Notes under the pieces: model-generated
Databases searched by the model: none
What the model was told of the DNA's origin: nothing
The model's input: the letters and a program-made list of their open reading frames with translations, nothing else
Shown here: piece by piece, positions 1 to 64,000 of the stretch
How positions within the stretch are numbered: the first letter of the stretch is position 1
Layout: each line of letters opens with the position of its first letter
Source: the human T2T-CHM13v2.0 reference genome, Homo sapiens
Direction: 5' to 3'
DNA: 64,000 bases
Assembly (NCBI GenBank): GCA_009914755.4
Contig: CP086569.2
Location: forward strand, 61,632,001-61,696,000
Program-made: the position numbers and the translations under genes

Positions 1-222
1 AAACGGAATGCAAAGGAATGGAATGGAATAGTATGGAATGGAATGGAAAGGAATGGAGTGGAATAGACTAGAGTGGAATGGAATGGACTCAAAAGCAATG
101 GACTGGAATGGAACTTTCTTGAATGGACTGGAATCAAACGGAATGGAATGCAATGCAATCAAATGGCATGGAATAAAATAGAATGAAAGAGAATCAAACG
201 GAATTGAATCGAATGGAATCGA
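1..222 (+). repeat. HSat3 HOR unit U0, partial (3' 222 bp of a unit)
   Basis: Matches the last 222 bp of later units (e.g. 3540-3761). The phase used is arbitrary: units are cut at the anchor 'atggattggaaaggaatagaatgg'. Confidence 0.8.
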
Positions 223-3200
223 ATGGATTGGAAAGGAATAGAATGGAATGGAATGGAATTGACTCAAATGGAATGGACTAGAATGGAATGGATTCGAATG
301 GAAGGCAAAGGAATGGAATCTATTGGAATGGACTGTAATGGAATGGAATGGAAGGGATTGGAATGGACTCGAATGGAATGGACTGCAATAGAAAGGATTC
401 GAATGGAATGAAAAAGAATTGAATGGAATAGAACAGAATGGAATCAAATCGAATGAAATGGAATGGAATAGAAAGGAATGGAATGAAATGGAATGGAAAG
501 GATTCGAATGGAATGCAATCGAATGGAATGGAATCGAACGGAATGGAATAAAATGGAAGAAAACTGGCAAGAAATGGAATCGAAATGAATGGAGTGTTAT
601 GGAACGGACTCAAAAGGAATTGAATGTAATAGAATGGAGTGGAGTGGACTCGAATATAATGGACTGGAATGGAATGAAATCACATGGAATGGGAACGAAT
701 GGAATGGAATGGAAAGGAATGGAATCGAATGGAAAGGAATCGAATGGAAGGGAATGAAATTGAATCAACAGGAATGGAAGGGAATAGAATAGACGGTAAT
801 GGAATGGACTCGAATAGAATGGACACGAATGCTCAAATTGAATGGACTCGAATGGAATGGAAACGAAAGGAATGTCATCGAATGGAATTGAATCGATTGG
901 AATGAAATCGCATAGAATGGAGTGGAATCAAATGGAATTGAATCGAAAGGAAAGGAAGCGAATGGACTGAAATGAAATGGAATGGAATTGAATGGAAAGT
1001 AATGCAATGGAATAGAATGGAACGAAATTTCACGGAATGGAATCAAACTGAATGGAATCAAATCAATGGAATATAATCAAATGGAATGGAAAGGAATTGA
1101 ATGGAGTAGATTGGATTGGATGGGATTGGAATGAAATTTACTGGAAAGGACTCGAATTTCATGAAACGGAAAGGAATGAATTGGAATGGAATGGACTCGA
1201 ATGGAATGGAATGTCATGGAATGGCATCAAACGGAATGGCATCAAATGGGATGGAATCGAATGCAATGGAATGCTATGGAATGGAATGGAATGCATTGGA
1301 ATGGAATGTCCTCTAATGGAATGGATTCGGGTGGAATGGAATCGAATATAACGGAGTCGAATGAAATGGAATTGAAAGGAATGGGATCGAATACAATGGA
1401 ATATACTGGAATGTAACGTAATGAACTCGAATGTAATTGACTGGAATGGAATGTACATGAATGGAATGTAATCGAATGGAAAGTAATCCAATGGAATAGA
1501 ATCTAATGCAATAAAATCGACTGTAATAGAATAGAATGTAATGGAATGGAGTGCAGTGCAATGGAATGGAATGGAATGGAATGCAATGGAATGGAATGGA
1601 ATGCAATGGGATGGAATGGTATGGAATGGATAGTAATGGACTGGAGTGAAATGGACTGGAAAGGAATGGACTCAAATTGAAAGGGCTCGAAAGGAATGGA
1701 GTCAAATGGAATGGTCTGGAATGGAATGAACACGAATGTAATGCAATCCAATAGAATGGAATCGAATGGCATGGAATATAAAGAAATGAAATCGAAGAGA
1801 ATGGAAACAAATGGAATGGAATTGAATGGAATGGAATTGAATGGAATGGGAACGAATGGAGTGAAATTGTATGCAGTAGAAGAGAATAGAATGGAATGCA
1901 AGCGAAAGGAAAGGAATGGATTGGAATGGAATGGAATTCATTGGAATGGAAGGGAATGTAGTGTAATAGACAGGCCTGGAATAAAGTGGAATGCTACGGT
2001 CTCGAATGGAATAAAAATGTATGGAATGGAATGCAATGAAACGGAATCGAATGTCATAGAATGTAATGGAATGCAAAAAAATGGACTCCAAAATCATTGA
2101 CTGGAAAGGCTGGGTGTCGAATGGAATCGACTCCAATGGAATGGAATCGAATGGAATGGAAGTGAATAGAATCGAACTAAATCGAATAGAATGGAATTGA
2201 TAGGAACGGAATGGAAAGGAATGCAATGATTTGGCATGGAATGGAATCGAATGGCATCGAATGGAATGGAATGGAATGCAATGGAATGGAATGTATTAGA
2301 ATGTAATGAACTTTAATGGAATGTACTCGAATGGATTCGACTAGAATGGAATGTTCTGGAAGTGAATGGACTCCAATGGAATGGATTCGAAAGGAATGGA
2401 ATCGTACGGAATGGTATCCAATGGAATGGAATTAAATGGAAATGAATCAAATTGAATAGCACGGAATTGAATTGAATGGAATCGAATGCAATGGAATCTA
2501 ATGAAACGGAAAGGAAAGGAATGGAATGGAATGGAATGGGCTGGAATGGAATGGAATCGAAACGAATGGAATGGAATCGAACTGAAGAGACTGGAATGGA
2601 ATGCACTGGAATGGAAGGGAGTGTAATGGAAGGTTCTCGAAAAAAATGGAATCGAATGGAATGGAATTGAATGGAACGGAATAGAGTCGAATGGAATTGA
2701 ATGGAATGGAATGGACTAGAGTGAAATGGAATCGAACCACAAGGAATGGACAGGAATAGAATGGTCTCGAATTGAATGGAATCGTATGGAATGGCATCAA
2801 ACGGAATGGAATGGACAGCCACGGAATGGAATGCACTCGAATGCAATGGAGTCGAAACTAATGGACTGGAATAGAATGGACTCGACTGGTACGGACTCCA
2901 ATGGAATGGAATCGAATGGAAGGGATTCGAACGGAATGGACTTGAAGGGAAAAGACTGCAATGGAAAGGTCTCGAATGGAAAGGAAATTAATGGAATGGA
3001 ATGGAATCGAATGAAATGGAGTCAAAAGGAATGGAATCGAATGGCAAGAAATCGAATGTAATGGAATCGCAAGGAATTGATGTGAACGTAACGGAATGGA
3101 ATGGAATCCAAAGGAATGGAATAGAATGGAATGGAATCGAATGGAAAGGACTCGAATGGAAATCACTCGAATAGAATGCAATTTAATAAAATAGGATCAA

Positions 3201-3761
3201 ATGTAATGGAATGGAATGGAAAGGAATCGAAACGAAAGGAATGGAGACAGATGGAATGGAATGGAACAGAGAGCAATGGTATAGAATGGAATGGAATCAT
3301 CTGGAATGGAATTGAATGGAATGGAATAACATGAAATGGAATGGAATGGAATGGAATGCCCTTGAATTAAATGGACTGGAATGGAATGGACTCGAACAGA
3401 GTGGAATGGAAAGTGTTGAAATAGAATATAATGGACTCCTTTGGAATGGTCTAGTATGCAATGCAATCGACTGGCAGGGAATCAAAAGGAATGTAATCGA
3501 ATGGATTGGACTGGAATGCAATGGACTCGAATAGATTGGAAACGGAATGCAAAGGAATGGAATGGAATAGTATGGAATGGAATGGAAAGGAATGGAGTGG
3601 AATAGACTAGAGTGGAATGGAATGGACTCAAAAGCAATGGACTGGAATGGAACTTTCTTGAATGGACTGGAATCAAACGGAATGGAATGCAATGCAATCA
3701 AATGGCATGGAATAAAATAGAATGAAAGAGAATCAAACGGAATTGAATCGAATGGAATCGA
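223..3761 (+). repeat. HSat3 HOR unit U1 (3539 bp)
   Basis: Anchor at 223. It is 10 bp shorter than the modal 3549 because a (ggaat)n-gc block near 1,590 is contracted, (ggaat)3 against (ggaat)5 in U3. Confidence 0.8.
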
Positions 3762-6700
3762 ATGGATTGGAAAGGAATAGAATGGAATGGAATGGAATTG
3801 ACTCAAATGGAATGGACTAGAATGGAATGGATTCGAATGGAAGGCAAAGGAATGGAATCTATTGGAATGGACTGTAATGGAATGGAATGGAAGGGATTGG
3901 AATGGACTCGAATGGAATGGACTGCAATAGAAAGGATTCGAACGGAATGAAAAAGAATTGAATGGAATAGAACAGAATGGAATCAAATCGAATGAAATGG
4001 AATGGAATAGAAAGGAATGGAATGAAATGGAATGGAAAGGATTCGAATGGAATGCAATCGAATGGAATGGAATCGAACGGAATGGAATAAAATGGAAGAA
4101 AACTGGCAAGAAATGGAATCGAAATGAATGGAGTGTTATGGAACGGACTCAAAAGGAATTGAATGTAATAGAATGGAGTGGAGTGGACTCGAATATAATG
4201 GACTGGAATGGAATGAAATCACATGGAATGGGAACGAATGGAATGGAATGGAAAGGAATGGAATCAAATGGAAAGGAATCGAATGGAAGGGAATGAAATT
4301 GAATCAACAGGAATGGAAGGGAATAGAATAGACGGTAATGGAATGGACTCGAATAGAATGCACACGAATGCTCAAATTGAATGGACTCGAATGGAATGGA
4401 AACGAAAGGAATGTCATCGAATGGAATTGAATCGATTGGAATGAAATCGCATAGAATGGAGTGGAATCAAATGGAATTGAATCGAAAGGAAAGGAAGCGA
4501 ATGGACTGAAATGAAATGGAATGGAATTGAATGGAAAGTAATGCAATGGAATAGAATGGAACGAAATTTCATGGAATGGAATCAAACTGAATGGAATCAA
4601 ATCAATGGAATATAATCAAATGCAATGGAAAGGAATTGAATGGAGTAGATTGGATTGGATGGGATTGGAATGAAATTTACTGGAAAGGACTCGAATTTCA
4701 TGAAACGGAATGGAATGAATTGGAACGGAATGGACTCGAATGGAATGGAATGTCATGGAATGGCATCAAACGGAATGGCATCAAACGGAATGGCTTCAAA
4801 TGGGATGGAATCGAATGCAATGGAATGCTATGGAATGGAATGGAATGCATTGGAATGGAATGTCCTCTAATGGAATGGATTCGGGTGGAATGGAATCGAA
4901 TATAATGGAGTCGAATGAAATGGAATTGAAAGGAATGGGATCGAATACTATGGAATATACTGGAATGTAACGTAATGAACTCGAATGTAATTGACTGGAA
5001 TGGAATGTACATGAATGGAATGTAATCGAATGGAAAGTAATCCAATGGAATAGAATCTAATGCAATAAAATCGACTGTAATAGAATAGAATGTAATGGAA
5101 TGGAGTGCAGTGCAATGGAATGGAATGGAATGGAATGCAATGGAATGGAATGGAATGGAATGGGATGGAATGGTATGGAATGGATAGTAATGGACTGGAG
5201 TGAAATGGACTGGAATGGAATGGACTCAAATTGAAAGGGCTCGAAAGGAATGGAGTCAAATGGAATGGTCTGGAATGGAATGAACACGAATGTAATGCAA
5301 TCCAATAGAATGGAATCGAATGGCATGGAATATAAAGAAATGGAATCGAAGAGAATGGAAACAAATGGAATGGAATTGAATGGAATGGAATTGAATGGAA
5401 TGGGAACGAATGGAGTGAAATTGTATGCAGTAGAAGAGAATAGAATGGAATGCAAGCGAAAGGAAAGGAATGGATTGGAATGGAATGGAATTCATTGGAA
5501 TGGAAGGGAATGTAGTGTAATGGACAGGCCTGGAATAAAGTGGAATGCTACGGTCTCGAATGGAATAAAAATGTATGGAATGGAATGCAATGAAACGGAA
5601 TCGAATGTCATAGAATGTAATGGAATGCAAAAAAATGGACTCCAAAATCATTGACTGGAAAGGCTGGGTGTCGAAAGGAATGGACTCCAATGGAATGGAA
5701 TCGAATGGAATGGAAGTGAATAGAATCGAACTAAATCGAATGGAATGGAATTGATAGGAACGGAATGGAAAGGAATGCAATGATTTGGCATGGAATGGAA
5801 TCGAATGGCATCGAATGGAATGGAATGGAATGCAATGGAATGGAATGTATTAGAATGTAATGAACTTTAATGGAATGTACTCGAATGGATTCGACTAGAA
5901 TGGAATGTTCTGGAAGTGAATGGACTCCAATGGAATGGATTCGAAAGGAATGGAATCGTACGGAATGGTATCCAATGGAATGGAATTAAATGGAAATGAA
6001 TCAAATTGAATAGCACGGAATTGAATTGAATGGAATCGAATGCAATGGAATCTAATGAAACGGAAAGGAAAGGAATGGAATGGAATGGAATGGGCTGGAA
6101 TGGAATGGAATCGAAACGAATGGAATGGAATCGAACTGAAGAGACTGGAATGGAATGCACTGGAATGGAAGGGAGTGTAATGGAAGGTTCTCGAAAAAAA
6201 TGGAATCGAATGGAATGGAATTGAATGGAACGGAATAGAGTCGAATGGAATTGAATGGAATGGAATGGACTAGAGTGAAATGGAATCGAACCACAAGGAA
6301 TGGACAGGAATAGAATGGTCTCGAATTGAATGGAATCGTATGGAATGGCATCAAACGGAATGGAATGGACAGCCACGGAATGGAATGCACTCGAATGCAA
6401 TGGAGTCGAAACTAATGGACTGGAATAGAATGGACTCGACTGGTACGGACTCCAATGGAATGGAATCGAATGGAAGAGAATCGAACGGAATGGACTCGAA
6501 GGGAAAAGACTGCAATGGAAAGGTCTCGAATGGAATGGAAATTAATGGAATGGAATGGAATCGAATGAAATGGAGTCAAAAGGAATGGAATCGAATGGCA
6601 AGAAATCGAATGTAATGGAATCGCAAGGAATTGATGTGAACGGAACGGAATGGAATGGAATCCAAAGGAATGGAATAGAATGGAATGGAATCGAATGGAA

Positions 6701-7315
6701 AGGACTCGAATGGAAATCACTCGAATAGAATGCAATTTAATAAAATAGGATCAAATGAAATGGAATGGAATGGAAAGGAATCGAAACAAAAGGAATGGAG
6801 ACAGATGGAATGGAATGGAACAGAGTGCAATGGTATAGAATGGAATGGAATCATCTGGAATGGAATCATCTGGAATGGAATAACATGAAATGGAATGGAA
6901 TGGAATGGAATGCCCTTGAATTAAATGGACTGGAATGGAATGGACTCGAACAGAGTGGAATGGAAAGTGTTGAAATAGAATGGAATGGACTCCTTTGGAA
7001 TGGTCTAGTATGCAATGCAATCGACTGGCAGGGAATCAAAAGGAATGTAATCGAATGGATTGGACTGGAATGCAATGGACTCGAATAGATTGGAAACGGA
7101 ATGCAAAGGAATGGAATGGAATAGTATGGAATGGAATGGAAAGGAATGGAGTGGAATAGACTAGAGTGGAATGGAATGGACTCAAAAGCAATGGACTGGA
7201 ATGGAACTTTCTTGAATGGACTGGAATCAAACGGAATGGAATGCAATGCAATCAAATGGCATGGAATAAAATAGAATGAAAGAGAATCAAACGGAATTGA
7301 ATCGAATGGAATCGA
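3762..7315 (+). repeat. HSat3 HOR unit U2 (3554 bp)
   Basis: Anchor at 3762. A +15 bp duplication of 'ggaatggcatcaaac' near 4,780 gives the 104-aa ORF where other units have 99 aa. A -10 bp change near 5,150 loses 'aatggaatgc'. Confidence 0.8.
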
Positions 7316-10300
7316 ATGGATTGGAAAGGAATAGAATGGAATGGAATGGAATTGACTCAAATGGAATGGACTAGAATGGAATGGATTCGAATGGAAGGCA
7401 AAGGAATGGAATCTATTGGAATGGACTGTAATGGAATGGAATGGAAGGGATTGGAATGGACTCGAATGGAATGGACTGCAATAGAAAGGATTCGAATGGA
7501 ATGAAAAAGAATTGAATGGAATAGAACAGAATGGAATCAAATCGAATGAAATGGAATGGAATAGAAAGGAATGGAATGAAATGGAATGGAAAGGATTCGA
7601 ATGGAATGCAATCGAATGGAATGGAATCGAACGGAATGTAATAAAATGGAAGAAAACTGGCAAGAAATGGAATCGAAATGAATGGAGTGTTATGGAACGG
7701 ACTCAAAAGGAATTGAATGTAATAGAATGGAGTGGAGTGGACTCGAATATAATGGACTGGAATGGAATGAAATCACATGGAATGGGAACGAATGGAATGG
7801 AATGGAAAGGAATGGAATCAAATGGAAAGGAATCGAATGGAAGGGAATGAAATTGAATCAACAGGAATGGAAGGGAATAGAATAGAAGGTAATGGAATGG
7901 ACTCGAATAGAATGCACACGAATGCTCAAATTGAATGGACTCGAATGGAATGGAAACGAAAGGAATGTCATCGAATGGAATTGAATCGATTGGAATGAAA
8001 TCGCATAGAATGGAGTGGAATCAAATGGAATTGAATCGAAAGGAAAGGAAGCGAATGGACTGAAATGAAATGGAATGGAATTGAATGGAAAGTAATGCAA
8101 TGGAATAGAATGGAACGAAATTTCACGGAATGGAATCAAACTGAATGGAATCAAATCAATGGAATATAATCAAATGGAATGGAAAGGAATTGAATGGAGT
8201 AGATTGGATTGGATGGGATTGGAATGAAATTTACTGGAAAGGACTCGAATTTCATGAAACGGAATGGAATGAATTGGAACGGAATGGACTCGAATGGAAT
8301 GGAATGTCATGGAATGGCATCAAACGGAATGGCATCAAATGGGATGGAATCGAATGCAATGGAATGCTATGGAATGGAATGGAATGCATTGGAATGGAAT
8401 GTCCTCTAATGGAATGGATTCGGGTGGAATGGAATCGAATATAATGGAGTCGAATGAAATGGAATTGAAAGGAATGGGATCGAATACAATGGAATATACT
8501 GGAATGTAACGTAATGAACTCGAATGTAATTAACTGGAATGGAATGTACATGAACGGAATGTAATCGAATGGAAAGTAATCCAATGGAATAGAATCTAAT
8601 GCAATAAAATTGACTGTAATAGAATAGAATGTAATGGAATGGAGTGCAGTGCAATGGAATGGAATGGAATGGAATGCAATGGAATGGAATGGAATGGAAT
8701 GGAATGCAATGGGATGGAATGGTATGGAATGGATAGTAATGGACTGGAGTGAAATGGACTGGAAAGGAATGGACTCAAATTGAAAGGGCTCGAAAGGAAT
8801 GGAGTCAAATGGAATGGTCTGGAATGGAATGAACACGAATGTAATGCAATCCAATAGAATGGAATCGAATGGCAAGGAATATAAAGAAATGGAATCGAAG
8901 AGAATGGAAACAAATGGAATGGAATTGAATGGAATGGAATTGAATGGAATGGGAACGAATGGAGTGAAATTGTATGCAGTAGAAGAGAATAGAATGGAAT
9001 GCAAGCGAAAGGAAAGGAATGGATTGGAATGGAATGGAATTCATTGGAATGGAAGGGAATGTAGTGTAATGGACAGGCCTGGAATAAAGTGGAATGCTAC
9101 GGTCTCGAATGGAATAAAAATGTGTGGAATGGAATGCAATGAAACGGAATCGAATGTCATAGAATGTAATGGAATGCAAAAAAATGGACTCCAAAATCAT
9201 TGACTGGAAAGGCTGGGTGTCGAAAGGAATTGACTCCAATGGAATGGAATCGAATGGAATGGAAGTGAATAGAATCGAACTAAATCGAATGGAATGGAAT
9301 TGATAGGAACGGAATGGAAAGGAATGCAATGATTTGGCATGGAATGGAATCGAATGGCATCGAATGGAATGGAATGGAATGCAATGGAATGGAATGTATT
9401 AGAATGTAATGAACTTTAATGGAATGTACTCGAATGGATTCGACTGGAATGGAATGTTCTGGAAGTGAATGGACTCCAATGGAATGGATTCGAAAGGAAT
9501 GGAATCGTACGGAATGGTATCCAATGGAATGGAATTAAATGGAAATGAATCAAATTGAATAGCACGGAATTGAATTGAATGGAATCGAATGCAATGGAAT
9601 CTAATGAAACGGAAAGGAAAGGAATGGAATGGAATGGAATGGGCTGGAATGGAATGGAATCGAAACGAATGGAATGGAATCGAACTGAAGAGACTGGAAT
9701 GGAATGCACTGGAATGGAAGGGAGTGTAATGGAAGGTTCTCGAAAAAAATGGAATCGAATGGAATGGAATTGAATGGAACGGAATAGAGTCGAATGGAAT
9801 TGAATGGAATGGAATGGACTAGAGTGAAATGGAATCGAACCACAAGGAATGGACAGGAATAGAATGGTCTCGAATTGAATGGAATCGTATGGAATGGCAT
9901 CAAACGGAATGGAATGGACAGCCACGGAATGGAATGCACTCGAATGCAATGGAGTCGAAACTAATGGACTGGAATAGAATGGACTTGACTGGTACGGACT
10001 CCAATGGAATGGAATCGAATGCAAGGGAATCGAACGGAATGGACTCGAAGGGAAAAGACTGCAATGGAAAGGTCTCGAATGGAATGGAAATTAATGGAAT
10101 GGAATGGAATCGAATGAAATGGAGTCAAAAGGAATGGAATCGAATGGCAAGAAATCGAATGTAATGGAATCGCAAGGAATTGATGTGAACGGAACGGAAT
10201 GGAATGGAATCCAAAGGAATGGAATAGAATGGAATGGAATCGAATGGAAAGGACTCGAATGGAAATCACTCGAATAGAATGCAATTTAATAAAATAGGAT

Positions 10301-10864
10301 CAAATGTAATGGAATGGAATGGAAAGGAATCGAAACGAAAGGAATGGAGACAGATGGAATGGAATGGAACAGAGAGCAATGGTATAGAATGGAATGGAAT
10401 CATCTGGAATGGAATTGAATGGAATGGAATAACATGAAATGGAATGGAATGGAATGGAATGCCCTTGAATTAAATGGACTGGAATGGAATGGACTCGAAC
10501 AGAGTGGAATGGAAAGTGTTGAAATAGAATGGAATGGACTCCTTTGGAATGGTCTAGTATGCAATGCAATCGACTGGCAGGGAATCAAAAGGAATGTAAT
10601 CGAATGGATTGGACTGGAATGCAATGGACTCGAATAGATTGGAAACGGAATGCAAAGGAATGGAATGGAATAGTATGGAATGGAATGGAAAGGAATGGAG
10701 TGGAATAGACTAGAGTGGAATGGAATGGACTCAAAAGCAATGGACTGGAATGGAACTTTCTTGAATGGACTGGAATCAAACGGAATGGAATGCAATGCAA
10801 TCAAATGGCATGGAATAAAATAGAATGAAAGAGAATCAAACGGAATTGAATCGAATGGAATCGA
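7316..10864 (+). repeat. HSat3 HOR unit U3 (3549 bp, modal length)
   Basis: Anchor at 7316. This unit is used as the reference copy for the comparisons here. Confidence 0.8.
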
Positions 10865-13800: not shown

Positions 13801-14413
13801 GACTCGAATGGAAATCACTCGAATAGAATGCAATTTAATAAAATAGGATCAAATGTAATGGAATGGAATGGAAAGGAATCGAAACGAAAGGAATGGAGAC
13901 AGATGGAATGGAATGGAACAGAGAGCAATGGTATAGAATGGAATGGAATCATCTGGAATGGAATTGAATGGAATGGAATAACATGAAATGGAATGGAATG
14001 GAATGGAATGCCCTTGAATTAAATGGACTGGAATGGAATGGACTCGAACAGAGTGGAATGGAAAGTGTTGAAATAGAATGGAATGGACTCCTTTGGAATG
14101 GTCTGGTATGCAATGCAATCGACTGGCAGGGAATCAAAAGGAATGTAATCGAATGGATTGGACTGGAATGCAATGGACTCGAATAGATTGGAAACGGAAT
14201 GCAAAGGAATGGAATGGAATAGTATGGAATGGAATGGAAAGGAATGGAGTGGAATAGACTAGAGTGGAATGGAATGGACTCAAAAGCAATGGACTGGAAT
14301 GGAACATTCTTGAATGGACTGGAATCAAACGGAATGGAATGCAATGCAATCAAATGGCATGGAATAAAATAGAATGAAAGAGAATCAAACGGAATTGAAT
14401 CGAATGGAATCGA
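10865..14413 (+). repeat. HSat3 HOR unit U4 (3549 bp)
   Basis: Anchor at 10865. The first ~700 bp carry the 'b-type' variants (MEWNGKESNGRE, GMERN...GSRIDGNG). The later part shares 'FPFHY...QLITF' variants with U8 and U11. Confidence 0.8.
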
Positions 14414-49200: not shown

Positions 49201-49791
49201 ATAGAATGCAATTTAATAAAATAGGATCAAATGTAATGGAATGGAATGGAAAGGAATCGAAACGAAAGGAATGGAGACAGATGGAATGGAATGGAACAGA
49301 GAGCAATGGTATAGAATGGAATGGAATCATCTGGAATGGAATTGAATGGAATGGAATAACATGAAATGGACTGGAATGGAATGGAATGCCCTTGAATTAA
49401 ATGGACTGGAATGGAATAGACTCGAACAGAGTGGAAAGGAAAGTGTTGAAATAGAATGGAATGGACTCCTTTGGAATGGTCTAGTATGCAATGCAATCGA
49501 CTGGCAGGGAATCAAAAGGAATGTAATCGAATGGATTGGACTGGAATGCAATGGACTCGAATAGATTGGAAACGGAATGCAAAGGAATGGAATGGAATAG
49601 TATGGAATGGAATGGAAAGGAATGGAGTGGAATAGACTAGAGTGGAATGGAATGGACTCAAAAGCAATGGACTGGAATGGAACATTCTTGAATGGACTGG
49701 AATCAAACGGAATGGAATGCAATGCAATCAAATGGCATGGAATAAAATAGAATGAAAGAGAATCAAACGGAATTGAATCGAATGGAATCGA
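46243..49791 (+). repeat. HSat3 HOR unit U14 (3549 bp)
   Basis: Anchor at 46243. Confidence 0.8.
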
Positions 49792-52700: not shown

Positions 52701-53345
52701 TGGAATAGAATGGAATGGAATCGAATGGAAAGGACTCGAATGGAAATCACTTGAATAGAATGCAATTTAATAAAATAGGATCAAATGTAATGGAATGGAA
52801 TGGAAACGAATCGAAACGAAAGGAATGGAGACAGATGGAATGGAATGGAATAGAGAGCAATGGTATAGAATGGAATGGAATCATCTGGAATGGAATTGAA
52901 TGGAATGGAATAACATGAAATGGAATGGAATGGAATGGAATGCCCTTGAATTAAATGGACTGGAATGGAATGGACTCGAACAGAGTGGAATGGAAAGTGT
53001 TGAAATAGAATGGAATGGACTCCTTTGGAATGGTCTAGTATGCAATGCAGTCGACTGGCAGGGAATCAAAAGGAGTATAATGGAATGGATTGGACTGGAA
53101 TGCAATGGACTCGAATAGATTGGAAACGGAATGCAAAGGAATGGAATGGAATAGTATGGAATGGAATGGAAAGGAATGGAGTGGAATAGACTAGAGTGGA
53201 ATGGAATGGACTCAAAAGCAATGGACTGGAATGGAACTTTCTTGAATGGACTGGAATCAAACGGAATGGAATGCAATGCAATCAAATGGCATGGAATAAA
53301 ATAGAATGAAAGAGAATCAAACGGAATTGAATCGAATGGAATCGA
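49792..53345 (+). repeat. HSat3 HOR unit U15 (3554 bp)
   Basis: Anchor at 49792. Pentamer-scale insertions, for example near 50,600-50,650, add a net 5 bp. Confidence 0.8.
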
Positions 53346-56300
53346 ATGGATTGGAAAGGAATAGAATGGAATGGAATGGAATTGACTCAAATGGAATGGA
53401 CTAGAATGGAATGGATTCGAATGGAAGGCAAAGGAATGGAATCTATTGGAATGGACTGTAATGGAATGGAATGGAAGGGATTGGAATGGACTCGAATGGA
53501 ATGGACTGCAATAGAAAGGATTCGAATGGAATGAAAAAGAATTGAATGGAATAGAACAGAATGGAATCAAATCGAATGAAATGGAATGGAATAGAAAGGA
53601 ATGGAATGAAATGGAATGGAAAGGATTCGAATGGAATGCAATCGAATGGAATGCAATCGAATGGAATGGAATCGAACGGAATGGAATAAAATGGAAGAAA
53701 ACTGGCAAGAAATGGAATCGAAATGAATGGAGTGTTATGGAACGGACTCAAAAGGAATTGAATGTAATAGAATGGAGTGGAGTGGACTCGAATATAATGG
53801 ACTGGAATGGAATGAAATCACATGGAATGGGAACGAATGGAATGGAATGGAAAGGAATGGAATCGAATGGAATCGAATGTAAAGGAATCGAATGGAAGGG
53901 AATGAAATTGAATCAACAGGAATGGAAGGGAATAGAATAGAAGGTAATGGAATGGACTCGAATAGAATGGACACGAATGCTCAAATTGAATGGACTCGAA
54001 TGGAATGGAAACGAAAGGAATGTCATTGAATGGAATTGAATCGATTGGAATGAAATCGCATAGAATGGAGTGGAATCAAATGGAATTGAATCGAAAGGAA
54101 AGGAAGCGAATGGACTGAAATGAAATGGAATGGAATTGAATGGAAAGTAATGCAATGGAATAGAATGGAACGAAATTTCACGGAATGGAATCAAACTGAA
54201 TGGAATCAAATCAATGGAATATAATCAAATGGAATGGAAAGGAATTGAATGGAGTAGATTGGATTGGATGGGATTGGAATGAAATGTACTGGAAAGGACT
54301 CGAATTTCATGAAACGGAATGGAATGAATTGGAACGGAATGGACTCGAATGGAATAGAATGTCATGGAATGGCATCAAATGGAATGGCATCAAATGGAAT
54401 GGAATCGAATGCAATGGAATGCTATGGAATAGAATGGAATGCATTGGAATGGAATGTCCCCTAATGGAATGGATTCGAGTGGAATGGAATCGAATATAAT
54501 GGAGTCGAATGAAATGGAATTGAAAGGAATGGGAGCGAATACAATGGAATATACTGGAATGTAATGGAATGAACTCGAATGTAATTGACTGGAATGGAAT
54601 GTACATGAATGGAATGTAATCGAATGGAAAGCAATCCAATGGAATAGAATCTAATGCAATAAAATCGACTCAAATAGAGTAGAATGTAATGGAATGGAGT
54701 GCAGTGCAATGGAATGGAATGGAATGGAATGCAATGGAATGGAATGGAATGGAATGGAATGGGATGGAATGGTATGGAATGGATAGTAATGGACTGGAGT
54801 GAAATGGACTGGAAAAGAATGGACTCAAATTGAAAGGGCTCGAAAGGAATGGAGTCAAATGGAATGGTCTGGAATGGAATGAACACGAATGTAATGCAAT
54901 CCAATAGAATGGAATCGAATGGCATGGAATATAAAGAAATGGAATCGAAGAGAATGGAAACAAATGGAATGGAATTGAATGGAATGGAATTGAATGGAAT
55001 GGGAACGAATGGAGTGAAATTGTATGCAGTAGAAGAGAATAGAATGGAATGCAAGCGAAAGGAAAGGAATGGATTGGAATGGAATGGAATTCATTGGAAT
55101 GGAAGTGAATGTAGTGTAATGGACAGGCCTGGAATAAAGTGGAATGCTACGGTCTCGAATGGAATAAAAATGTATGGAATGGAATGCAATGAAACGGAAT
55201 CGAATGTCATAGAATGTAATGGAATGCAAAAAAATGGACTCCAAAATCATTGACTGGAAAGGCTGGGTGTCGAAAGGAATTGACTCCAATGGAATGGAAT
55301 CGAATGGAATGGAAGTGAATAGAATCGAACTAAATCGAATGGAATGGAATTGATAGGAACGGAATGGAAAGGAATGCAATGATTTGGCATGGAATGGAAT
55401 CGAATGGCATCGAATGGAATGGAATGGAATGCAATGGAATGGAATGTATTAGAATGTAATGAACTTTAATGGAATGAACTCGAATGGATTCGACTGGAAT
55501 GGAATGTTCTCCAAGTGAATGGACTCCAATGGAATGGATTCGAAAGGAATGGAATCAAATGGAATGGAATTAAATGGAAATGAATCAAATTGAATAGCAC
55601 GGAATTGAATTGAATGGAATCGAATGCAATGGAATCTAATGAAACGGAAAGGAAAGGAATGGAAAGGAATGTAATGGGCTGGGATGGAATGGAATCGAAA
55701 CGAATGGAATGGAATCGAACTGAAGAGACTGGAATGGAATGCACTGGAATGGAAGGGAGTGTAATGGAAGGTTCTCGAAAAAAATGGAATCGAAAGGAAT
55801 GGAATTGAATGGAACGGAATAGAGTCGAATGGAATTGAATGGAATGGAATGGACTAGAGTGAAATGGAATCGAACCGCAAGGAATGGACAGGAATAGAAT
55901 GGTCTCGAATTGAATTGGATCGTATGGAATGGCATCAAACGGAATGGAATGGACAGCCACGGAATGGAATGCACTCGAATGCAATGGAGTCGAAACTAAT
56001 GGACTGGAATAGAATGGACTCGACTGGTACGGACTCCAATGGAATGGAATCGAATGGAAGGGAATCGAACGGAATGGACTCGAAGGGAAAAGACTGCAAT
56101 GGAAAGGTCTCGAATGGAATGGAAATTAATGGAATGGAATGGAATCGAATGAAATGGAGTCAAAAGGAATGGAATGGAATGGCAAGAAATCGAATGTAAT
56201 GGAATCGCAAGGAATTGATGTGAATGGAACGGAATGGAATGGAATCCAAAGGAATGGAATAGAATGGAATGGAATCGAATTGAAAGGACTCGAATGGAAA

Positions 56301-56899
56301 TCACTCGAATAGAATGCAATTTAATAAAATAGGATCAAATGTAATGGAATGGAATGGAAAGGAATCGAAACGAAAGGAATGGAGACAGATGGAATGGAAT
56401 GGAACAGAGAGCAATGGTATAGAATGGAATGGAATCATCTGGAATGGAATTGAATGGAATGGAATAACATGAAATGGACTGGAATGGAATGGAATGCCCT
56501 TGAATTAAATGGACTGGAATGGAATGGACTCGAACAGAGTGGAATGGAAAGTGTTGAAATAGAATGGAATGGACTCCTTTGGAATGGTCTAGTATGCAAT
56601 GCAATCGACTGGCAGGGAATCAAAAGGAATGTAATCGAATGGATTGGACTGGAATGCAATGGACTCGAATAGATTGGAAACGGAATGCAAAGGAATGGAA
56701 TGGAATAGTATGGAATGGAATGGAAAGGAATGGAGTGGAATAGACTAGAGTGGAATGGAATGGACTCAAAAGCAATGGACTGGAATGGAACATTCTTGAA
56801 TGGACTGGAATCAAACGGAATGGAATGCAATGCAATCAAATGGCATGGAATAAAATAGAATGAAAGAGAATCAAACGGAATTGAATCGAATGGAATCGA
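53346..56899 (+). repeat. HSat3 HOR unit U16 (3554 bp, more diverged)
   Basis: Anchor at 53346. A 15-bp duplication 'ggaatgcaatcgaat' near 53,640 extends two ORFs. There is a ~21-bp deletion near 55,555 and more substitutions than in internal units. Confidence 0.75.
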
Positions 56900-58795
56900 A
56901 TGGATTGGAAAGGAATAGAATGGAATGGAATGGAATTGACTCAAATGGAATGGACTAGAATGGAATGGATTCGAATGGAAGGCAAAGGAATGGAATCTAT
57001 TGGAATGGACTGTAATGGAATGGAATGGAAGGGATTGGAATGGACTCGAATGGAATGGACTGCAATAGAAAGGATTCGAACGGAATGAAAAAGAATTGAA
57101 TGGAATAGAACAGAATGGAATCAAATCGAATGAAATGGAATGGAATAGAAAGGAATGGAATGAAATGGAATGGAAAGGATTCGAATGGAATGTAATAGAA
57201 TGGAATGGAATCAAAAGGAATGGAATAAAATGGAAGAAAACTGGCAAGAAATGGAATCGAAATGAATGGAGTGTTATGGAACGGACTCAAAAGGAATTGA
57301 ATGTAATAGAATGGAGTGGAGTGGACTCGAATATAATGGACTGGAATGGAATGAAATCACATGGAATGGGAACGAATGGAATGGAATGGAAAGGAATGGA
57401 ATCGAATGGAAAGGAATCGAATGGAAGGGAATGAAATTGAATCAACAGGAATGGAAGGAAGTAGAATAGACGGTAATGGAATGGACTCGAATAGAATGGA
57501 CAGGAATGCTCAAATTGAATGGACTCGAATGGAATGGAAACGAAAGGAATGTCATCGAATGGAATTGAATCGATTGGAATGAAATCGCATAGAATGGAGT
57601 GGAATCAAATGGAATTGAATCGAAAGGAAAGGAAGCGAATGGACTGAAATGAAATGGAATGGAATTGAATGGAAAGTAACGCAATGGAATAGAATGGGAT
57701 GAAATTTCACGGAATGGAATCAAATAGAATGGAATCAAATCAATGGAATATAATCAAATGGAATGGAAAGGAATTGAATGGAGTAGATTGGATTGGATGG
57801 GATTGGAATGAAATGGAATGGAAAGGACTCGAAGTTCATGAAACGGAATGGAATGAATTGGAATGGAATGGACTCGAATGGAATGGAATATCATGGAATG
57901 GCATCAAATGGAATGGAATCGAATGGAATGGAATCGAATGCATTGGAATGTTATGAAAAAGGAATGGAATGTATTCGAATGAAAAGTCCTCTAATGGAAT
58001 GGATTCGAGTGGAATGGAATCGAATATAATGGAGTCGAATGAAATGGAATTGAAAGGAATGGGATCGAATAGAATGGAATATACTGGAATGTAATGTAAT
58101 GAAGTCGAATGTAATTGACTGGAATGGAATGTACATGAATGGAATGTAATCGAATGGAAAGTAATCCAATGGAATAGAATCTAATGCAATAAAATCGACT
58201 CAAATGGAATAGAATGTAATAGAATGGAATGCAGTGCAATGGAACGGAATGGAATGCAATGCAATGGAGTGGAATGGAAGGGAATGGAATGGGATGGAAT
58301 GGTATGTAATGGATAGGAATGGACTGGAGTGAAATGGACTGGAAAGGAATGGACTCAAATTGAAAGGGCTCGAAAGGAATGGAGTCAAATGGAATGGTCT
58401 GGAATGGAATGAACTCGAATGTAATGCAGTCCAATAGAATGGAATCGAATGGCATGGAATATAAAGAAATGGAATCGAAGAGAACGGAAACAAATGGAAT
58501 GGAATTGAATGGAATGGGAACGAATGGAGTGAAATTGTATGGAATAGAAGAGAATAGAATGGAATGCAAGCGAAAGGAAAGGTATGGATTGGAATGGAAT
58601 GGAATTCATTGGAATGGAAGGGAATGTAGAGTAATGGACAGGCCTGGAAAAAACTGGAATGCTACGGTCTCGAATGGAATAAAAATGTATGGAATGCAAT
58701 GCAATGAAACGGAATCAAATGTCATAGAATGTAATGGAATGCAAAAAAATGGACTCCGAAGTCATTGACTGGAAAGGCTGGGTGTCGAAAGGAAT
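56900..58795 (+). repeat. HSat3 HOR unit U17, truncated (1,896 bp) and most diverged; ends at the junction with the AT-rich satellite
   Basis: Anchor at 56900. Substitutions and indels are dense from ~57,700 onward. The unit ends within 'gtcgaaaggaat' at 58,795, where the full HOR would continue 'tgactccaatgg'. Confidence 0.75.
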
Positions 58796-58800
58796 AAATA
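58790..58800. other. Breakpoint between the HSat3 (DYZ1-like) array and the AT-rich HSat1B (DYZ2-like) array
   Basis: 'ggtgtcgaaaggaat|aaataatatacattatataaaat'. HSat3 homology ends at 58,795 (+/-3 bp, because of 'aat' microhomology). The sequence after it aligns with 61,212 onward in the next 2.4-kb unit. Confidence 0.8.
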
Positions 58801-59180
58801 ATATACATTATATAAAATATATATATTATGTCTATGTTATATATATTATAAAACAACATATAATAATATATAATTGTATACATAAAATATGACATATAAT
58901 ATATATTTTATTTGATGACATATAATATATATTATATATTATATATAATACGTTGTATGTATGATACCTATATTAAATAGATATTATAAGAATATGCTAT
59001 TAAATACATGTCATATATGTTATATATTATGTATTTTACATAGAATATACTGGTTACATATAATATATTCTATGTTACCTATAATGTATAATTTATTACA
59101 TATAATACGATGAATGTCACATATTATATATAATTTATAATATACAATATGTGGAATGTGATATATATAACATAAAATAT

Positions 59181-59270
59181 ATGATATATGATATACAATA
59201 TATGATATATAACACACAATATATGATACACAATATATATGGTATACAATATATACTTTATGATATGTAT
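59181..59270. repeat. Degenerate ~16-18-bp tandem sub-repeat (atgatatacaatat-like) inside the AT-rich block
   Basis: 'atgatat atgatatacaatat atgatatataacacacaatat atgatacacaatatat atggtatacaatatatac'. The equivalent copy is at ~61,595-61,690. Confidence 0.5.
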
Positions 59271-60040
59271 TATATATGTTTTACATTCTGTTATATATAC
59301 CTACTTGAAATTATATATAACTGTATAATATTTTATGTAAATATGTAATATAATATATAGAACTATGTAATATATTATATATAACTATATATTATGTTAT
59401 CTATAGTTTTATTACATAATTTACATAAAATATCACAATATAATATTTATTATATTATTTTATATTACATAATATATATTATATATCACACAATATAAGT
59501 TACATACATAATATTAAAATATAGATTATATTATGATATATTAAATATCATATATATCATGTATCATATATTGTATAATATATATTATACATTATATAAT
59601 ATGCAATGTGTCTGTTATGTGATATATATAACTATATATATAATTATATTATTATATGTATAACTACATAAACATGTAATTCTATAGATTTTCATTTATA
59701 ATATTTATAATTATATAATCATATATATTTATTTATATTCTATAAAAAATTATATCATTATATAAATTATAATATATATAAATTATAATATGTACTAAAA
59801 ATATATATATTATATATCATGTATGATATAGTATATATGTTATATATCATATTGCATATAACTATGTATTATGTTATCTATAATCATATATTTTCCTATA
59901 TAAGATATATAATATGTATTATATATTATATATGTTTTGTAACCTATATAGTATATATAAGATGACACAGGGTAAATATTATATACTATGATGTATAAAA
60001 TATATGAGGTTATATGTTAGATATAAAGCATAATACATAA

Positions 60041-60361
<321 letters not shown>

Positions 60362-60930
60362 ATATTTTTCAAATGAAAAAAAATTTCAAAGCTACTCTGC
60401 TTGGTACAATAATCAAATGTATAAACTGAGGAATAAAACATAACCATGAAACATACTTATAACTGCATATGGAAAATACAGAGGATAATTTTTTAAATAA
60501 CATATTTTGAAAGCCTTAACTAGTAATTGAAAGAGTTGGCATTTGAAAGGCCAGTATGAATATACCTTCAAAGCAGCAACACAGGTTCCCCATGAGAAAA
60601 ATCAAACTCAGGGAAAATGAAACCACAAAGGTTCAATCTCTTCTGACCTTTGAAAGACACAGCACAGACAGTGGCCCTTAGGACCAAGAGCAGGAGACCC
60701 CTAATCCCGTCACCATGGCGATAGGGCATAAACATTGCTGGGTGAGGGCACAATCCACATTGAGGGGTCCAAATGCTGCCAGGAAGACAGAAGTGCTTCT
60801 ACATAGACCGAAAGGTCACTGAAGGCTCAGAGTTTTGATTCAAAAACTGAATCCCAAGCCCACACGTTATTGTGCTGCGCTTCTTAAAACAAGTTATGAG
60901 ATGGGAAATAGGGCACCCACAAACATACGT
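60362..60930. other. Non-AT-rich ~570-bp segment of the 2.4-kb unit, origin unknown
   Basis: Ordinary-complexity sequence with roughly balanced composition, from 'catatttttcaaatgaaaaaaaatttcaaagctactctg' to 'gggcacccacaaacatacg'. It lies between the Alu 5' end and the resumption of AT-rich sequence. Confidence 0.7.
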
Positions 60931-62453
60931 ATACATTATGTATATAATAATATACAGTATCATATATATAATATATATAACCTATGTATAATATGGCTTT
61001 ACATCCTGCATCTTATATTATATATATTTTATATAATATAATAATTGATAATATATAAGATTATATTTATACATTATGACATACAATATATATTATACTT
61101 TATGACATATATAATATATATTATATATCATATATAGAATATATTATATGGTTAATATACGTATTATATATAACTATACATTATATATATTATTTGTAAT
61201 ATATCTGTTATATATAATATACATTATATATAATATATATAATGTCTATGTTATATATAGTATAAAACAACATATAATAATATATAATTGTATACATAAA
61301 ATATGACATATAATATATAATTTATTTTATGACATATAATATATATTATATATTATATATAATACGTTGTATGTATGATACCTATATTAAATATATATTA
61401 TATGACTGTGCTATTAAATACATGTCATATATGTTATATATTATATATTTTACATAGAATATACAGGTTACATATAATATATTCTATGTTACCTATAATG
61501 TATAATTTATTGCATATAATAGGATGAATGTCATATATTATATATAATTTATAATATACAATGTGTGGAATGTGATATACATAACATGAAATCTATGATA
61601 TGTGATATACAATATATGATATATAACATACAATATATGATACACAATATATATGGTATACAATATATATTTTATGATATGTATTCTATATGTTTTACAT
61701 TCTGTTATATATACCTATTTGAAATTATATATAACTGTATAATATTTTATGTAAATATGTAATATAATATATAAAACAATGTAATATATCATATATAACT
61801 GTATATTATGTTATCTATAGTTTTCTTTCGTAATTTATATAAAATATCATAATATAATGATTATTATATTATTTTATATTACAAAATATATATTATATAT
61901 CACACAATATAAGTTACATACATAATATTAAAATATAGATTATATGATGATATATTAAATACCATATATATCATGTATCATATATTGTACAATATATATT
62001 ATACATTATATAATAAGCATGTTGTCTGTTATGTGATATATATAACTATATATATAATTATATTATTATATGTATAACAACCTAAACATGTAATTCTATA
62101 TATTTTCATTTATAATATATTTAATTATATAATCATATATAATTATTTATATTCTATAAAAAATTATATCATTATATAAATTATAATATATATAAATTAT
62201 AATATGTATTAAAATATTTATATTATATATCATATATGATATAGTATATATGTTATATATCATATTACATATAACTATGTATTATGTTATCTCTAATTAT
62301 ATATTTTTCTATATAAGTTGTATAATATGTATCATATATTATATATGTTATGTAAACTATATAGTATATATAAGATGACACAGGGTAAATATTATATACT
62401 ATGTCATATAAAATATATGAGGTTATATGTTAGATATAAAGCATATTACATAA

Positions 62454-62774
<321 letters not shown>

Positions 62775-63343
62775 ATATTTTTCAAATGAAAAAAAATTTC
62801 AAAGCTACTCTGCTTGGTACAATAATCAAATGTATAAACTGAGGAATAAAACATAACCATGAAACATACTTATAACTGCATATGGAAAATACAGAGGATA
62901 ATTTTTTAAATAACATATTTTGAAAGCCTTAACTAGTAATTGAAAGAGTTGGCATTTGAAAGGCCAGTATGAATATACCTTCAAAGCAGCAACACAGGTT
63001 CCCCATGAGAAAAATCAAACTCAGGGAAAATGAAACCACAAAGGTTCAATCTCTTCTGACCTTTGAAAGACACAGCACAGACAGTGGCCCTTAGGACCAA
63101 GAGCAGGAGACCCCTAATCCCGTCACCATGGCGATAGGGCATAAACATTGCTGGGTGAGGGCACAATCCACATTGAGAGGTCCAAATGCTGCCAGGAAGA
63201 CAGGAGTGCTTTTACATAGACCGAAAGGTCACTGAAGGCTCAGAGTTTTGTTTCAAAAACTGAATCCCAAGCCCACACGTTATTGTGCTGCGCTTCTTAA
63301 AACAAGTTATGAGATGGGAAATAGGGCACCCACAAACATACGT
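62775..63343. other. Non-AT-rich ~570-bp segment, second copy
   Basis: Roughly 99% identical to 60,362-60,930. The differences seen are 'gagaggtcc', 'gacaggagtgcttttacat' and 'gttttgtttc'. Confidence 0.7.
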
Positions 63344-63624
63344 ATACATTACGTATATAATAATATACAGTATCATATATATAATATATATAACCTATGT
63401 ATAATATTGCTTTACATCCTGCATCTTATATTATATATATTGTATATAATATAATAATTGATAATATATAAGATTATATTTATACATTATGACATACAAT
63501 ATATATTATACTTTATGACATATATAATATATATTATATATCATACATAGAATATATTATATGGTTAATATACGTATTATATATAACTATACATTATATA
63601 TATTATTTGTAATATATCTGTTAT

Positions 63625-64000
63625 ATATAATATACTTTATATATAATATATATAATGTCTATGTTATATATAGTATAAAACAACATATAATAATATATAA
63701 TTGTATACATAAAATATGACATATAATATATATTTTATTTTATGACATATAATATATATTATATATAATATATAATACGTTGTATGTATGATACCTATAT
63801 TAAATATATATTATATGACTGTGCTATTAAATACATGTCATATATGTTATATATTATATATTTTACATAGAATATACTGGTTACATATAATATATTCTAT
63901 GTTACGTATAATGTATAATTTATTGCATATAATTTGATGAATGTCATATATTATATATAACTTATACAATGTGTGGAAGGTGATATATATTACATGAAAT
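63625..64000 (-). repeat. 2.4-kb unit copy 3 (partial, truncated by window end)
   Basis: It is collinear with 61,212-61,590. It shares copy-2-specific variants ('tatattatatgactgtgctattaaat', 'ttattgcatataat') rather than the copy-1 states. Confidence 0.7.

What the first reader, a model, noticed from the sequence alone, without database searches (positions are those of the whole stretch)
1..64000. Window spans the edge of a GGAAT-satellite HOR array and the start of an AT-rich/Alu composite satellite, the Yq12 DYZ1/DYZ2 signature
A 3.5-kb HOR built from GGAAT pentamers abuts a 2.4-kb AT-rich unit that carries one Alu. From memory this matches DYZ1 (HSat3) and DYZ2 (HSat1B), which alternate across the human Yq12 heterochromatin. 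There is no coding potential and no prokaryotic-style 'system' here. The value of the window is as a fully resolved interface between two satellite arrays.
Basis: partly seen in the sequence, partly recalled or inferred. Interest (0 to 1): 0.5.

Follow-up and report, generated by a model that had tools for sequence, protein, structure and literature searches.

The report
Human Yq12 DYZ1/DYZ2 satellite boundary
The window is ordinary, already well-described human Y-chromosome long-arm heterochromatin: the end of a DYZ1 (HSat3A6) satellite array joined directly to the start of a DYZ2 (HSat1B) array, with no genes or other system in it.

Summary

**Left array (1-58,795).** A GGAAT-pentamer satellite in 16 full and one truncated higher-order repeat (HOR) copies of 3,514-3,554 bp. 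Copies are 99.3-99.8% identical to their consensus, falling to 97% in the last copy.

**Right array (58,796-64,000).** This holds 2.16 units of a 2,413-bp composite: an 86%-AT segment, a minus-strand, 5'-truncated Alu about 20% diverged, and a 573-bp GC-richer segment.

**Tests against published sequences:**
- Of the 14 HSat2/HSat3 subfamily-specific 24-mers, only the Y-chromosome HSat3A6 one occurs, about once per HOR.
- All eight published DYZ1 primers map in the published order.
- There is one HaeIII site per HOR.
- GC (38.7% and 23.8%), CpG density (1/34 and 1/149), the 2,413-bp modal unit and the ACATACG motif match the published Yq12 figures.

**Junction.** It is a blunt join with at most 2 nt of shared sequence, and the units on both sides of it are decayed.

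**Limits.** The chromosomal position could not be confirmed directly, because no human reference genome was available. An acrocentric or HSat2 origin failed the tests run here.

**Verdict.** Already known. The T2T-Y assembly and the 43-Y-chromosome assemblies resolved many such junctions. Low interest.

The parts
1..56677 (-). DYZ1 (HSat3A6) array interior. It holds 16 complete HOR copies of 3,514-3,554 bp, starting at 1, 3540, 7094, 10643, 14192, 17716, 21230, 24754, 28303, 31851, 35375, 38924, 42473, 46021, 49570 and 53124. The published TTCCA/CATTC sense is the minus strand. The array runs off the left end of the window.
   Evidence: Copies are 98.9-99.8% identical to the consensus. The HSat3A6 24-mer is found in 13 copies and there is one HaeIII site per copy. 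The published primers are collinear with the unit.
56678..58795 (-). Terminal, truncated DYZ1 copy of 2,118 bp, ending at HOR consensus position 2137. It is 97.0% identical to the consensus. Nearly all of its 64 substitutions lie in the last ~1.6 kb before the junction.
58791..58800 (.). DYZ1/DYZ2 junction, ...GTCGAAAGGAAT|AAATAATATACATT.... It is a blunt join with at most 2 nt of shared sequence, no filler and no target-site duplication. It falls about 293 bp into the AT-rich part of the DYZ2 unit.
   Evidence: Alignment to interior HOR copies and to the next two DYZ2 units.
58796..60064 (.). DYZ2 (HSat1B) AT-rich segment, first and truncated copy: 1,269 bp, 86.4% AT.
60065..60356 (-). DYZ2 Alu-derived subunit. 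It is 80.5% identical to the AluY consensus, covers Alu positions 12-288 (5'-truncated), and its poly-A tail abuts the AT-rich segment.
   Evidence: A weak match to the mir-1268 precursor family sits inside it; that family being Alu-derived is my own recollection. The T2T-Y paper describes a 20%-diverged AluY subunit.
60357..60929 (.). DYZ2 GC-richer segment (the 'HSATI' part): 573 bp, 60% AT. It ends in ACATACG at 60,923-60,929.
   Evidence: The motif and the layout are described in the Hallast et al. methods.
60930..62477 (.). DYZ2 AT-rich segment, full copy: 1,548 bp, 86.2% AT.
62478..62768 (-). DYZ2 Alu-derived subunit, second copy, 80.1% identical to AluY.
62769..63342 (.). DYZ2 GC-richer segment, second copy, ending in ACATACG at 63,336.
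63343..64000 (.). DYZ2 AT-rich segment, third copy, cut off by the end of the window.

Best explanation
The window is a piece of human Y-chromosome distal long-arm (Yq12) constitutive heterochromatin. It contains one boundary between a DYZ1 block and a DYZ2 block. DYZ1 is the Y-specific HSat3 subfamily A6, a ~3.55-kb higher-order repeat of diverged CATTC/GGAAT pentamers. DYZ2 is HSat1B, a 2,413-bp composite of an AT-rich segment, an old 5'-truncated AluY-derived subunit and a GC-richer 'HSATI' segment.

It encodes nothing. Both arrays are tandem repeats, most likely kept uniform by unequal sister-chromatid exchange and gene conversion.
- **Shown:** interior DYZ1 copies are 99.3-99.8% alike. 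They differ mainly by indels in multiples of 5 bp and by interleaved variant types, including an apparent three-unit (~10.6 kb) duplication.
- **Shown:** the last ~1.6 kb of DYZ1 is about 3-4% diverged, and the adjacent DYZ2 units in the window differ from each other by about 3%.
- **Inferred:** array edges take less part in homogenisation and so decay.
- **Inferred:** the junction itself is an old non-homologous, blunt join.
For: **DYZ1**
- The 3,549-bp modal HOR has 16 full copies.
- It has 215-225 exact TGGAA pentamers per unit, against the 184-235 TTCCA reported for sequenced DYZ1 units (PMC3925983).
- One HaeIII site per unit gives 3,514-3,569-bp fragments. DYZ1 was classically defined as the 3.4/3.56-kb HaeIII fragment.
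- Only the HSat3A6 24-mer out of 14 published subfamily markers is present, with 13 exact hits at one per HOR (table in PMC4022460).
- All 8 published DYZ1 primers map onto one unit in the published order. Seven lie within 15 nt of their published coordinates and the eighth (H) overlies the next HaeIII site, and primer D sits at exactly 2564-2583.
- GC is 38.7% and CpG density is 1/34, against the published 38% and 1/35.

**DYZ2**
- The period is 2,413 bp, the modal Yq12 DYZ2 length reported by Hallast et al..
- GC is 23.8% and CpG density is 1/149, against the published 24% and 1/150.
- The AT-rich part is 86% AT, the Alu is 80% identical to AluY and 5'-truncated, and a GC-richer part follows. 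This matches the T2T-Y description of >85% AT and 20% divergence.
- ACATACG sits at the boundary between the HSATI part and the AT-rich part.

**Edge decay**
- It was measured. Hallast et al. reported the same pattern for Yq12 arrays.
Against: - No human reference genome or Dfam/RepeatMasker library was available, so chromosomal placement rests on published marker sequences and parameters, not on an alignment.
- HSat1B also exists on acrocentric short arms and chr10.
- Altemose 2014 lists chr7 as a minor second location for HSat3A6.
- The exact junction k-mer was not found in other public contigs, so the junction has no independent replicate here.
Confidence: 0.95

Rival explanations
1. The window comes from an acrocentric short arm (13, 14, 15, 21 or 22) or another autosome, where HSat3 and HSat1B also occur, and not from Yq12.
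For: The T2T-Y paper states that HSat3 is on many chromosomes and that HSat1B is also on acrocentric short arms and chr10. Hallast et al. treat DYZ2 as 'Y-unspecific'.
Against: - None of the 24-mers that mark the acrocentric or autosomal HSat3 subfamilies (A1, A2, A4, A5, B1-B5) or HSat2 occurs in the window. The HSat3A6 marker occurs about once per HOR.
- The 3.55-kb HaeIII periodicity and the collinear DYZ1 primers match the male-specific unit.
- The 2,413-bp unit is the Yq12 mode.
Confidence: 0.02
2. The junction is an assembly chimera, that is, a false join of DYZ1 reads to DYZ2 reads, and not a real genomic boundary.
For: Yq12 is very hard to assemble. The junction k-mer was not recovered from any other public contig.
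Against: - The divergence of the last ~1.6 kb of DYZ1 is what the literature describes for true array ends, which are less homogenised. The adjacent DYZ2 units are also only about 97% alike, though with 2.16 units no gradient can be shown on that side.
- A false join between interior reads would show interior-type, ~99.5% units right up to the break.
- The collections searched are microbial or metagenomic and would rarely hold a sequence present a few dozen times per genome.
Confidence: 0.02
3. The sequence is from a non-human great ape with related HSat3 and HSat1 satellites.
For: Pentameric and AT-rich satellites are shared among hominoids (own knowledge, not tested here).
Against: - Primers designed on human DYZ1 match with 0-2 errors each (five of eight exactly) at near-published coordinates.
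- The unit length, GC content and CpG density equal the human Yq12 figures.
- Human-contaminant contigs in bacterial assemblies are 98-99% identical to this HOR.
Confidence: 0.01

Closest known systems
DYZ1 = HSat3 subfamily A6 (Nakahori 1986 3,564-bp HaeIII unit; Altemose 2014; T2T-Y, Rhie et al. 2023)
   Same: - Pentamer-derived 3.5-3.6-kb HOR with one HaeIII site per unit.
- The HSat3A6-specific 24-mer is present.
- All published primers are collinear with the unit.
- GC is 38% and CpG density is 1/35.
- Units are more than 98% identical, with decay at array ends.
   Different: Nothing of substance. The modal unit here is 3,549 bp rather than 3,564 bp, and 5-bp-multiple indels of this kind between copies are already reported (PMC3925983).
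DYZ2 = HSat1B (RepeatMasker HSATI + Alu + AT-rich repeat; Hallast et al. 2023 2,413/2,420-bp consensus)
   Same: - 2,413-bp unit made of three parts.
- The AluY-derived subunit is 5'-truncated and about 20% diverged.
- The AT-rich part is more than 85% AT.
- ACATACG lies at the HSATI/AT-rich border.
- GC is 24% and CpG density is 1/150.
   Different: Only 2.16 units are visible. They are about 97% alike, lower than the >98% typical of array interiors, as expected for units at an array end.
Acrocentric and autosomal HSat3 (A1-A5, B1-B5) and HSat2 arrays
   Same: They have the same ancestral CATTC pentamer, and some lie near HSat1B.
   Different: Their published subfamily-specific 24-mers are all absent from the window. 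Not tested here: whether any of them has a 3.55-kb HaeIII HOR.

Membership tests
DYZ1 / HSat3A6 | Tandem array derived from the pentamer CATTC/TTCCA (GGAAT on the other strand) | tested here: met
   GGAAT makes up 32-34% of bases in the array bins, all on one strand. TRF reports a pentamer-derived array at 5-58,626. There are 215-225 exact TGGAA per unit, against a published 184-235.
DYZ1 / HSat3A6 | Higher-order repeat of ~3.5-3.6 kb, released as a single HaeIII fragment | tested here: met
   Modal period is 3,549 bp, with 16 full copies. One GGCC per copy gives fragments of 3,514-3,569 bp.
DYZ1 / HSat3A6 | Carries the HSat3A6-specific 24-mer and not those of other HSat2/3 subfamilies (Altemose 2014, Table 1) | tested here: met
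   TCGTTTCGATTCCTTTCCATTCCA has 13 exact hits, one per HOR, on the minus strand. The 13 other subfamily 24-mers have 0 hits (table read).
DYZ1 / HSat3A6 | Collinear with the published 3,564-bp DYZ1 unit | tested here: met
   All 8 primers of PMC3925983 Table 5 map onto one unit in the published order, seven of them within 15 nt of their published positions. Five are exact and primer D is at exactly 2564-2583; primer H is printed one G short and overlies the next HaeIII site. The full GenBank unit itself was not available.
DYZ1 / HSat3A6 | GC ~38% and ~1 CpG per 35 bp (Hallast et al. 2023) | tested here: met
   38.7% GC and 1 CpG per 34 bp, against the published values.
DYZ1 / HSat3A6 | Male-specific, located in Yq12 | not testable with these tools
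   No human reference genome or read sets were available. This is inferred from the marker tests above.
DYZ2 / HSat1B | Tandem unit of ~2.4 kb, modal length 2,413 bp in Yq12 | tested here: met
   Nearest-repeat spacing is 2,413 (1,139 k-mers) or 2,414 (299). The published mode was read.
DYZ2 / HSat1B | Three-part unit: AT-rich region (>85% AT), old 5'-truncated AluY-derived subunit (~20% diverged), GC-richer HSATI region | tested here: met
   The AT-rich parts are 85.4-86.4% AT. The Alu is 80.1-80.5% identical to AluY over positions 12-288. The third part is 573 bp at 60% AT.
DYZ2 / HSat1B | 'ACATACG' at the junction of the HSATI part and the AT-rich part (Hallast methods) | tested here: met
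   ACATACG occurs only at 60,923 and 63,336, exactly at that border and 2,413 bp apart.
DYZ2 / HSat1B | GC ~24% and ~1 CpG per 150 bp | tested here: met
   23.8% GC and 1 CpG per 149 bp.
DYZ2 / HSat1B | RepeatMasker/Dfam annotation as HSATI | not testable with these tools
   No Dfam or Repbase library was available.
Yq12 alternating DYZ1/DYZ2 block architecture | DYZ1 and DYZ2 arrays directly abut and alternate many times | tested here: inconclusive
   One direct DYZ1-to-DYZ2 abutment is present at 58,795/58,796. Alternation beyond the 64-kb window cannot be seen.
HSat2 | Carries HSat2A1, HSat2A2 or HSat2B subfamily-specific 24-mers | tested here: not met
   0 hits for all three.
Acrocentric or autosomal HSat3 (A1, A2, A4, A5, B1-B5) | Carries the corresponding subfamily-specific 24-mer | tested here: not met
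   0 hits for all of them.

The most novel reading that the evidence does not exclude
The exact breakpoint may be the single ancestral DYZ1-to-DYZ2 join, copied to every such boundary in Yq12 by the multi-block duplications described for T2T-Y. The breakpoint lies at HOR consensus position 2137, joined bluntly ~293 bp into the DYZ2 AT-rich segment, with ~1.6 kb of decayed DYZ1 beside it. If it is shared, the decayed edge units would be stable, low-copy markers for reconstructing the duplication history of Yq12 blocks across Y haplogroups. My searches neither support nor exclude this, and it may already be implicit in published dot-plots.
Probability: 0.3. Interest if true: 0.2.

Novelty: already known. 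Interest (0 to 1): 0.07.

Why it matters
It matters little as a discovery. The Yq12 DYZ1/DYZ2 architecture, unit structures, edge decay and block duplications were resolved at base level in T2T-Y (Rhie et al. 2023) and in 43 further Y assemblies (Hallast et al. 2023).

The practical value is in triage.
- The window can be labelled as human Y heterochromatin and excluded from any search for coding or prokaryote-style systems.
- The same HOR turns up as human contamination in ten GTDB 'bacterial or archaeal' assemblies, which is a useful flag for database hygiene.

Tried and rejected
1. **Classic DYZ1 sexing primers.** I recalled the Y1.1/Y1.2 primers from memory (Kogan et al. 1987). They match once per HOR with a 154-bp product. 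I found no paper in the library that prints them (the hit, 15 was irrelevant). I therefore treat them as a lead only and replaced them with the primers printed in PMC3925983.
2. **Junction k-mer scans.** A 28-mer found nothing in genome contigs or metagenome contigs. A 22-mer found one metagenome contig, L011, which is an unrelated bacterial coding contig and a chance match. The junction therefore has no external replicate.
3. **Rfam on 57,000-64,000.** The only hits were two sub-threshold matches to the mir-1268 family inside the Alus, at 30.9 and 30.7 bits against a gathering score of 83. No SRP/7SL hit and no structured RNA were found.
4. **ORFs.** There are 62 ORFs of at least 150 aa, all on the minus strand of the DYZ1 part, 61 with TTG starts and one with GTG. 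They recur about every 3.5 kb. Their Pfam matches (Pentapeptide_4 and Extensin_1) are below the curated cut-offs and reflect the 5-residue periodicity that a 5-nt repeat imposes on its translation. I rejected them as genes.
5. **TRF on the DYZ2 AT-rich part.** It gave only weak, overlapping short-period rows and no clean sub-repeat.
6. **T2T-Y probe primers.** I looked in the T2T-Y text for HSat1B/HSat3 probe primer sequences to test, and none are printed.
Full report
**Observation**

The window has two sharply different parts.
- From 1 to about 58,800, GC is 0.37-0.41 with a strong, constant G>C and A>T skew.
- From 58,800 onward, GC swings between 0.14 and 0.40 with no skew.

In the left part, GGAAT makes up about a third of all bases in every 4-kb bin, and its complement never occurs on the + strand. 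TRF sees one pentamer-derived array at 5-58,626.

The spacing between nearest identical 24-mers peaks at 3,549 bp, with side peaks at 3,554, 3,524, 3,548, 3,539 and 3,514. In the right part it peaks at 2,413 or 2,414 bp.

Anchored BLAST and a MAFFT alignment define 16 full HOR copies (3,514-3,554 bp).

**The left array is DYZ1 / HSat3A6**

Interior copies are 99.3-99.8% identical to their consensus, and 13 of the 15 non-zero length differences from the 3,549-bp mode are multiples of 5 bp (the other two are 1 bp). I tested membership against sequences printed in papers rather than against memory.

1. **Subfamily markers.** Altemose et al. [quoted passage not shown]
   - Only the HSat3A6 one occurs, with 13 exact hits at one per HOR. 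That paper localises HSat3A6 to Y, with a minor chr7 signal, and equates it with DYZ1.
   - The three HSat2 markers and the ten other HSat3 markers have zero hits.
2. **Published primers.** All eight primers used to amplify the 3,564-bp DYZ1 HaeIII unit (PMC3925983, Table 5) map onto a single HOR unit in the published order.
   - Seven of the eight lie within 15 nt of the published coordinates. Primer H, printed at 3586-3606, maps across the next HaeIII site.
   - Five match exactly, and primer D falls at exactly 2564-2583 from the HaeIII cut.
3. **HaeIII periodicity.** There is exactly one HaeIII site per HOR, giving 3,514-3,569-bp fragments. DYZ1 was originally defined as the 3.4/3.56-kb male HaeIII band.
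4. **Pentamer count.** Each unit holds 215-225 exact TGGAA pentamers, within the 184-235 TTCCA counted in sequenced DYZ1 units.
5. **Composition.** GC is 38.7% and CpG density is 1 per 34 bp. Hallast et al. report 38% and 1 per 35 bp for DYZ1.

**The right array is DYZ2 / HSat1B**

The 5,205 bp after the junction hold 2.16 units of 2,413 bp. Hallast et al. report that the largest share of Yq12 DYZ2 units (46.8%) are exactly 2,413 bp. Each unit has three parts.
- An AT-rich segment of 1,548 bp at 86% AT.
- A 573-bp segment at 60% AT that ends in ACATACG.

[quoted passage not shown] It also matches Hallast et al.'s description of an AT-rich repeat fused to a 5'-truncated Alu followed by HSATI, with ACATACG at the HSATI/AT-rich border.

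GC is 23.8% and CpG density is 1 per 149 bp, against the published 24% and 1 per 150 bp. The largest HaeIII fragment of the unit is 2,015 bp. From memory, this corresponds to the classical ~2.1-kb male HaeIII band of Cooke 1976. I did not find a paper in the library to cite for that size.

**The junction and the array edge**

- The last DYZ1 copy follows the HOR consensus up to ...GTCGAAAGGAAT (consensus position 2137). Interior copies continue TGACTCC..., while the window continues AAATAATATACATT....
- Aligned to the next two DYZ2 units, DYZ2 homology starts within 2-4 nt of that point, about 293 bp into the AT-rich segment.
- The join is therefore blunt, with at most ~2 nt of shared sequence, no filler and no duplication.
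- The penultimate copy is 98.9% identical to the consensus and the last copy 97.0%.
- 62 of the last copy's 64 substitutions lie in its final ~1.6 kb. The spectrum is mixed, and only 7 are CpG transitions.
- The first two DYZ2 units are also only 96.9% alike.
- Hallast et al. describe this pattern for Yq12: units in the middle of an array are more alike than units at its ends.

**How it works**

Nothing here is a gene or a system in the prokaryotic sense. The window is constitutive heterochromatin. The best-supported account is the standard one for satellites.
- **Shown here:** near-identity of interior units, 5-bp-multiple indels and interleaved variant types. Examples are variants shared by copies 3, 4, 8, 9, 11 and 12, or by copies 5, 7 and 10.
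- **Shown here:** a dip in differences at a lag of three units. Copies 8/11 differ by 6 substitutions and copies 9/12 by 7, against a mean of about 25. This points to a recent ~10.6-kb three-unit duplication.
- **Inferred:** unequal sister-chromatid exchange and gene conversion homogenise the interior, as T2T-Y proposes for Yq12. Edges take less part in this and decay.
- **Inferred:** the junction arose once by non-homologous joining.

**Rivals**

- **Acrocentric or autosomal origin.** This is the main formal alternative, because HSat3 and HSat1B also occur there. The subfamily markers for those arrays are absent and the Y markers are present.
- **Assembly chimera.** This is unlikely, because the DYZ1 copies decay towards the break, as real array ends do, and the DYZ2 units beside it are also only ~97% alike.
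- **Non-human ape origin.** This is unlikely given the exact or near-exact matches (0-2 errors) to human primers and the published human parameters.
- **What remains untested.** None of these rivals could be excluded by direct alignment, because no human reference was available to me.

**Searches elsewhere**

- The junction k-mer was not found in the bacterial/archaeal genome collection or the metagenome collection. The one hit to a shorter k-mer, L011, is an unrelated bacterial contig.
- The HSat3A6 24-mer did find ten contigs in assemblies labelled as bacteria or archaea.
- Seven of the ten are 96.6-99% identical to this window's HOR consensus; the other three are more diverged or mixed (87-93% overall).
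- Two of them are about one HOR long: L001 (3,637 bp, 98.6%) and L010 (3,604 bp, 99.0%).
- This is the human-Y satellite contamination of microbial databases that the T2T-Y paper reported.

**Verdict**

The feature is real and already known, so interest is low.

Noticed in passing
L001-L010 (GTDB genome contigs), e.g. L001 = BMRF01000076.1 'Actinomadura cremea' 3,637 bp; L010 = CAYVXY010000078.1 'Polyangiaceae MAG' 3,604 bp: Ten contigs in assemblies labelled as bacteria or archaea carry the HSat3A6 24-mer and align to this window's DYZ1 HOR consensus at 87-99% identity. Two of them are about one collapsed HOR long. They are evidently human Y-satellite contamination of microbial assemblies, as reported in the T2T-Y paper.
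   Followed up: partly
window 24754-46020 (HOR copies 8-13): Copies 8/11 and 9/12 differ by only 6-7 substitutions, against about 25 on average, and copies 7/10 and 10/13 are also close. This suggests a recent duplication of a three-unit (~10.6 kb) block inside the array. 24-mer spacing shows a matching minor peak at 10,621 bp.
   Followed up: partly
window 1313-58569, minus strand: There are 62 mechanical ORFs of 150-358 aa, all on the minus strand of the DYZ1 part, 61 with TTG starts and one with GTG. They exist because the ATTCC repeat lacks stop codons in those frames. Their translations have 5-residue periodicity and give sub-threshold Pfam hits to Pentapeptide_4 (36.7 bits against a cut-off of 38) and Extensin_1. 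A naive gene caller could be trapped by them.
   Followed up: yes
window 60168-60234 and 62581-62647, minus strand: Weak Rfam matches to the mir-1268 precursor family (30.9 and 30.7 bits; gathering score 83) lie inside both DYZ2 Alu subunits. My reading is that they reflect an Alu-derived origin of that family (own recollection, not checked) rather than a miRNA gene here.
   Followed up: no
window 5521-5542 (and each HOR copy): Primer 'DYZ1 H', as printed in PMC3925983 Table 5 (TGGACAGCCTGGAATAAAGTG), lacks one G relative to every copy here (TGGACAGGCCTGGAATAAAGTG). The missing base lies in the HaeIII site, so this is probably a misprint in the paper.
   Followed up: no
window 1837-1990 and the same phase in all 17 copies: Two 23-mers that I recalled as the classic DYZ1 sexing primers (Kogan 1987 Y1.1/Y1.2) match once per HOR, facing each other, with a 154-bp product. 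In the terminal, decayed copy one site carries 2 mismatches. No paper in the library prints them, so this remains a recollection and not a cited test.
   Followed up: partly
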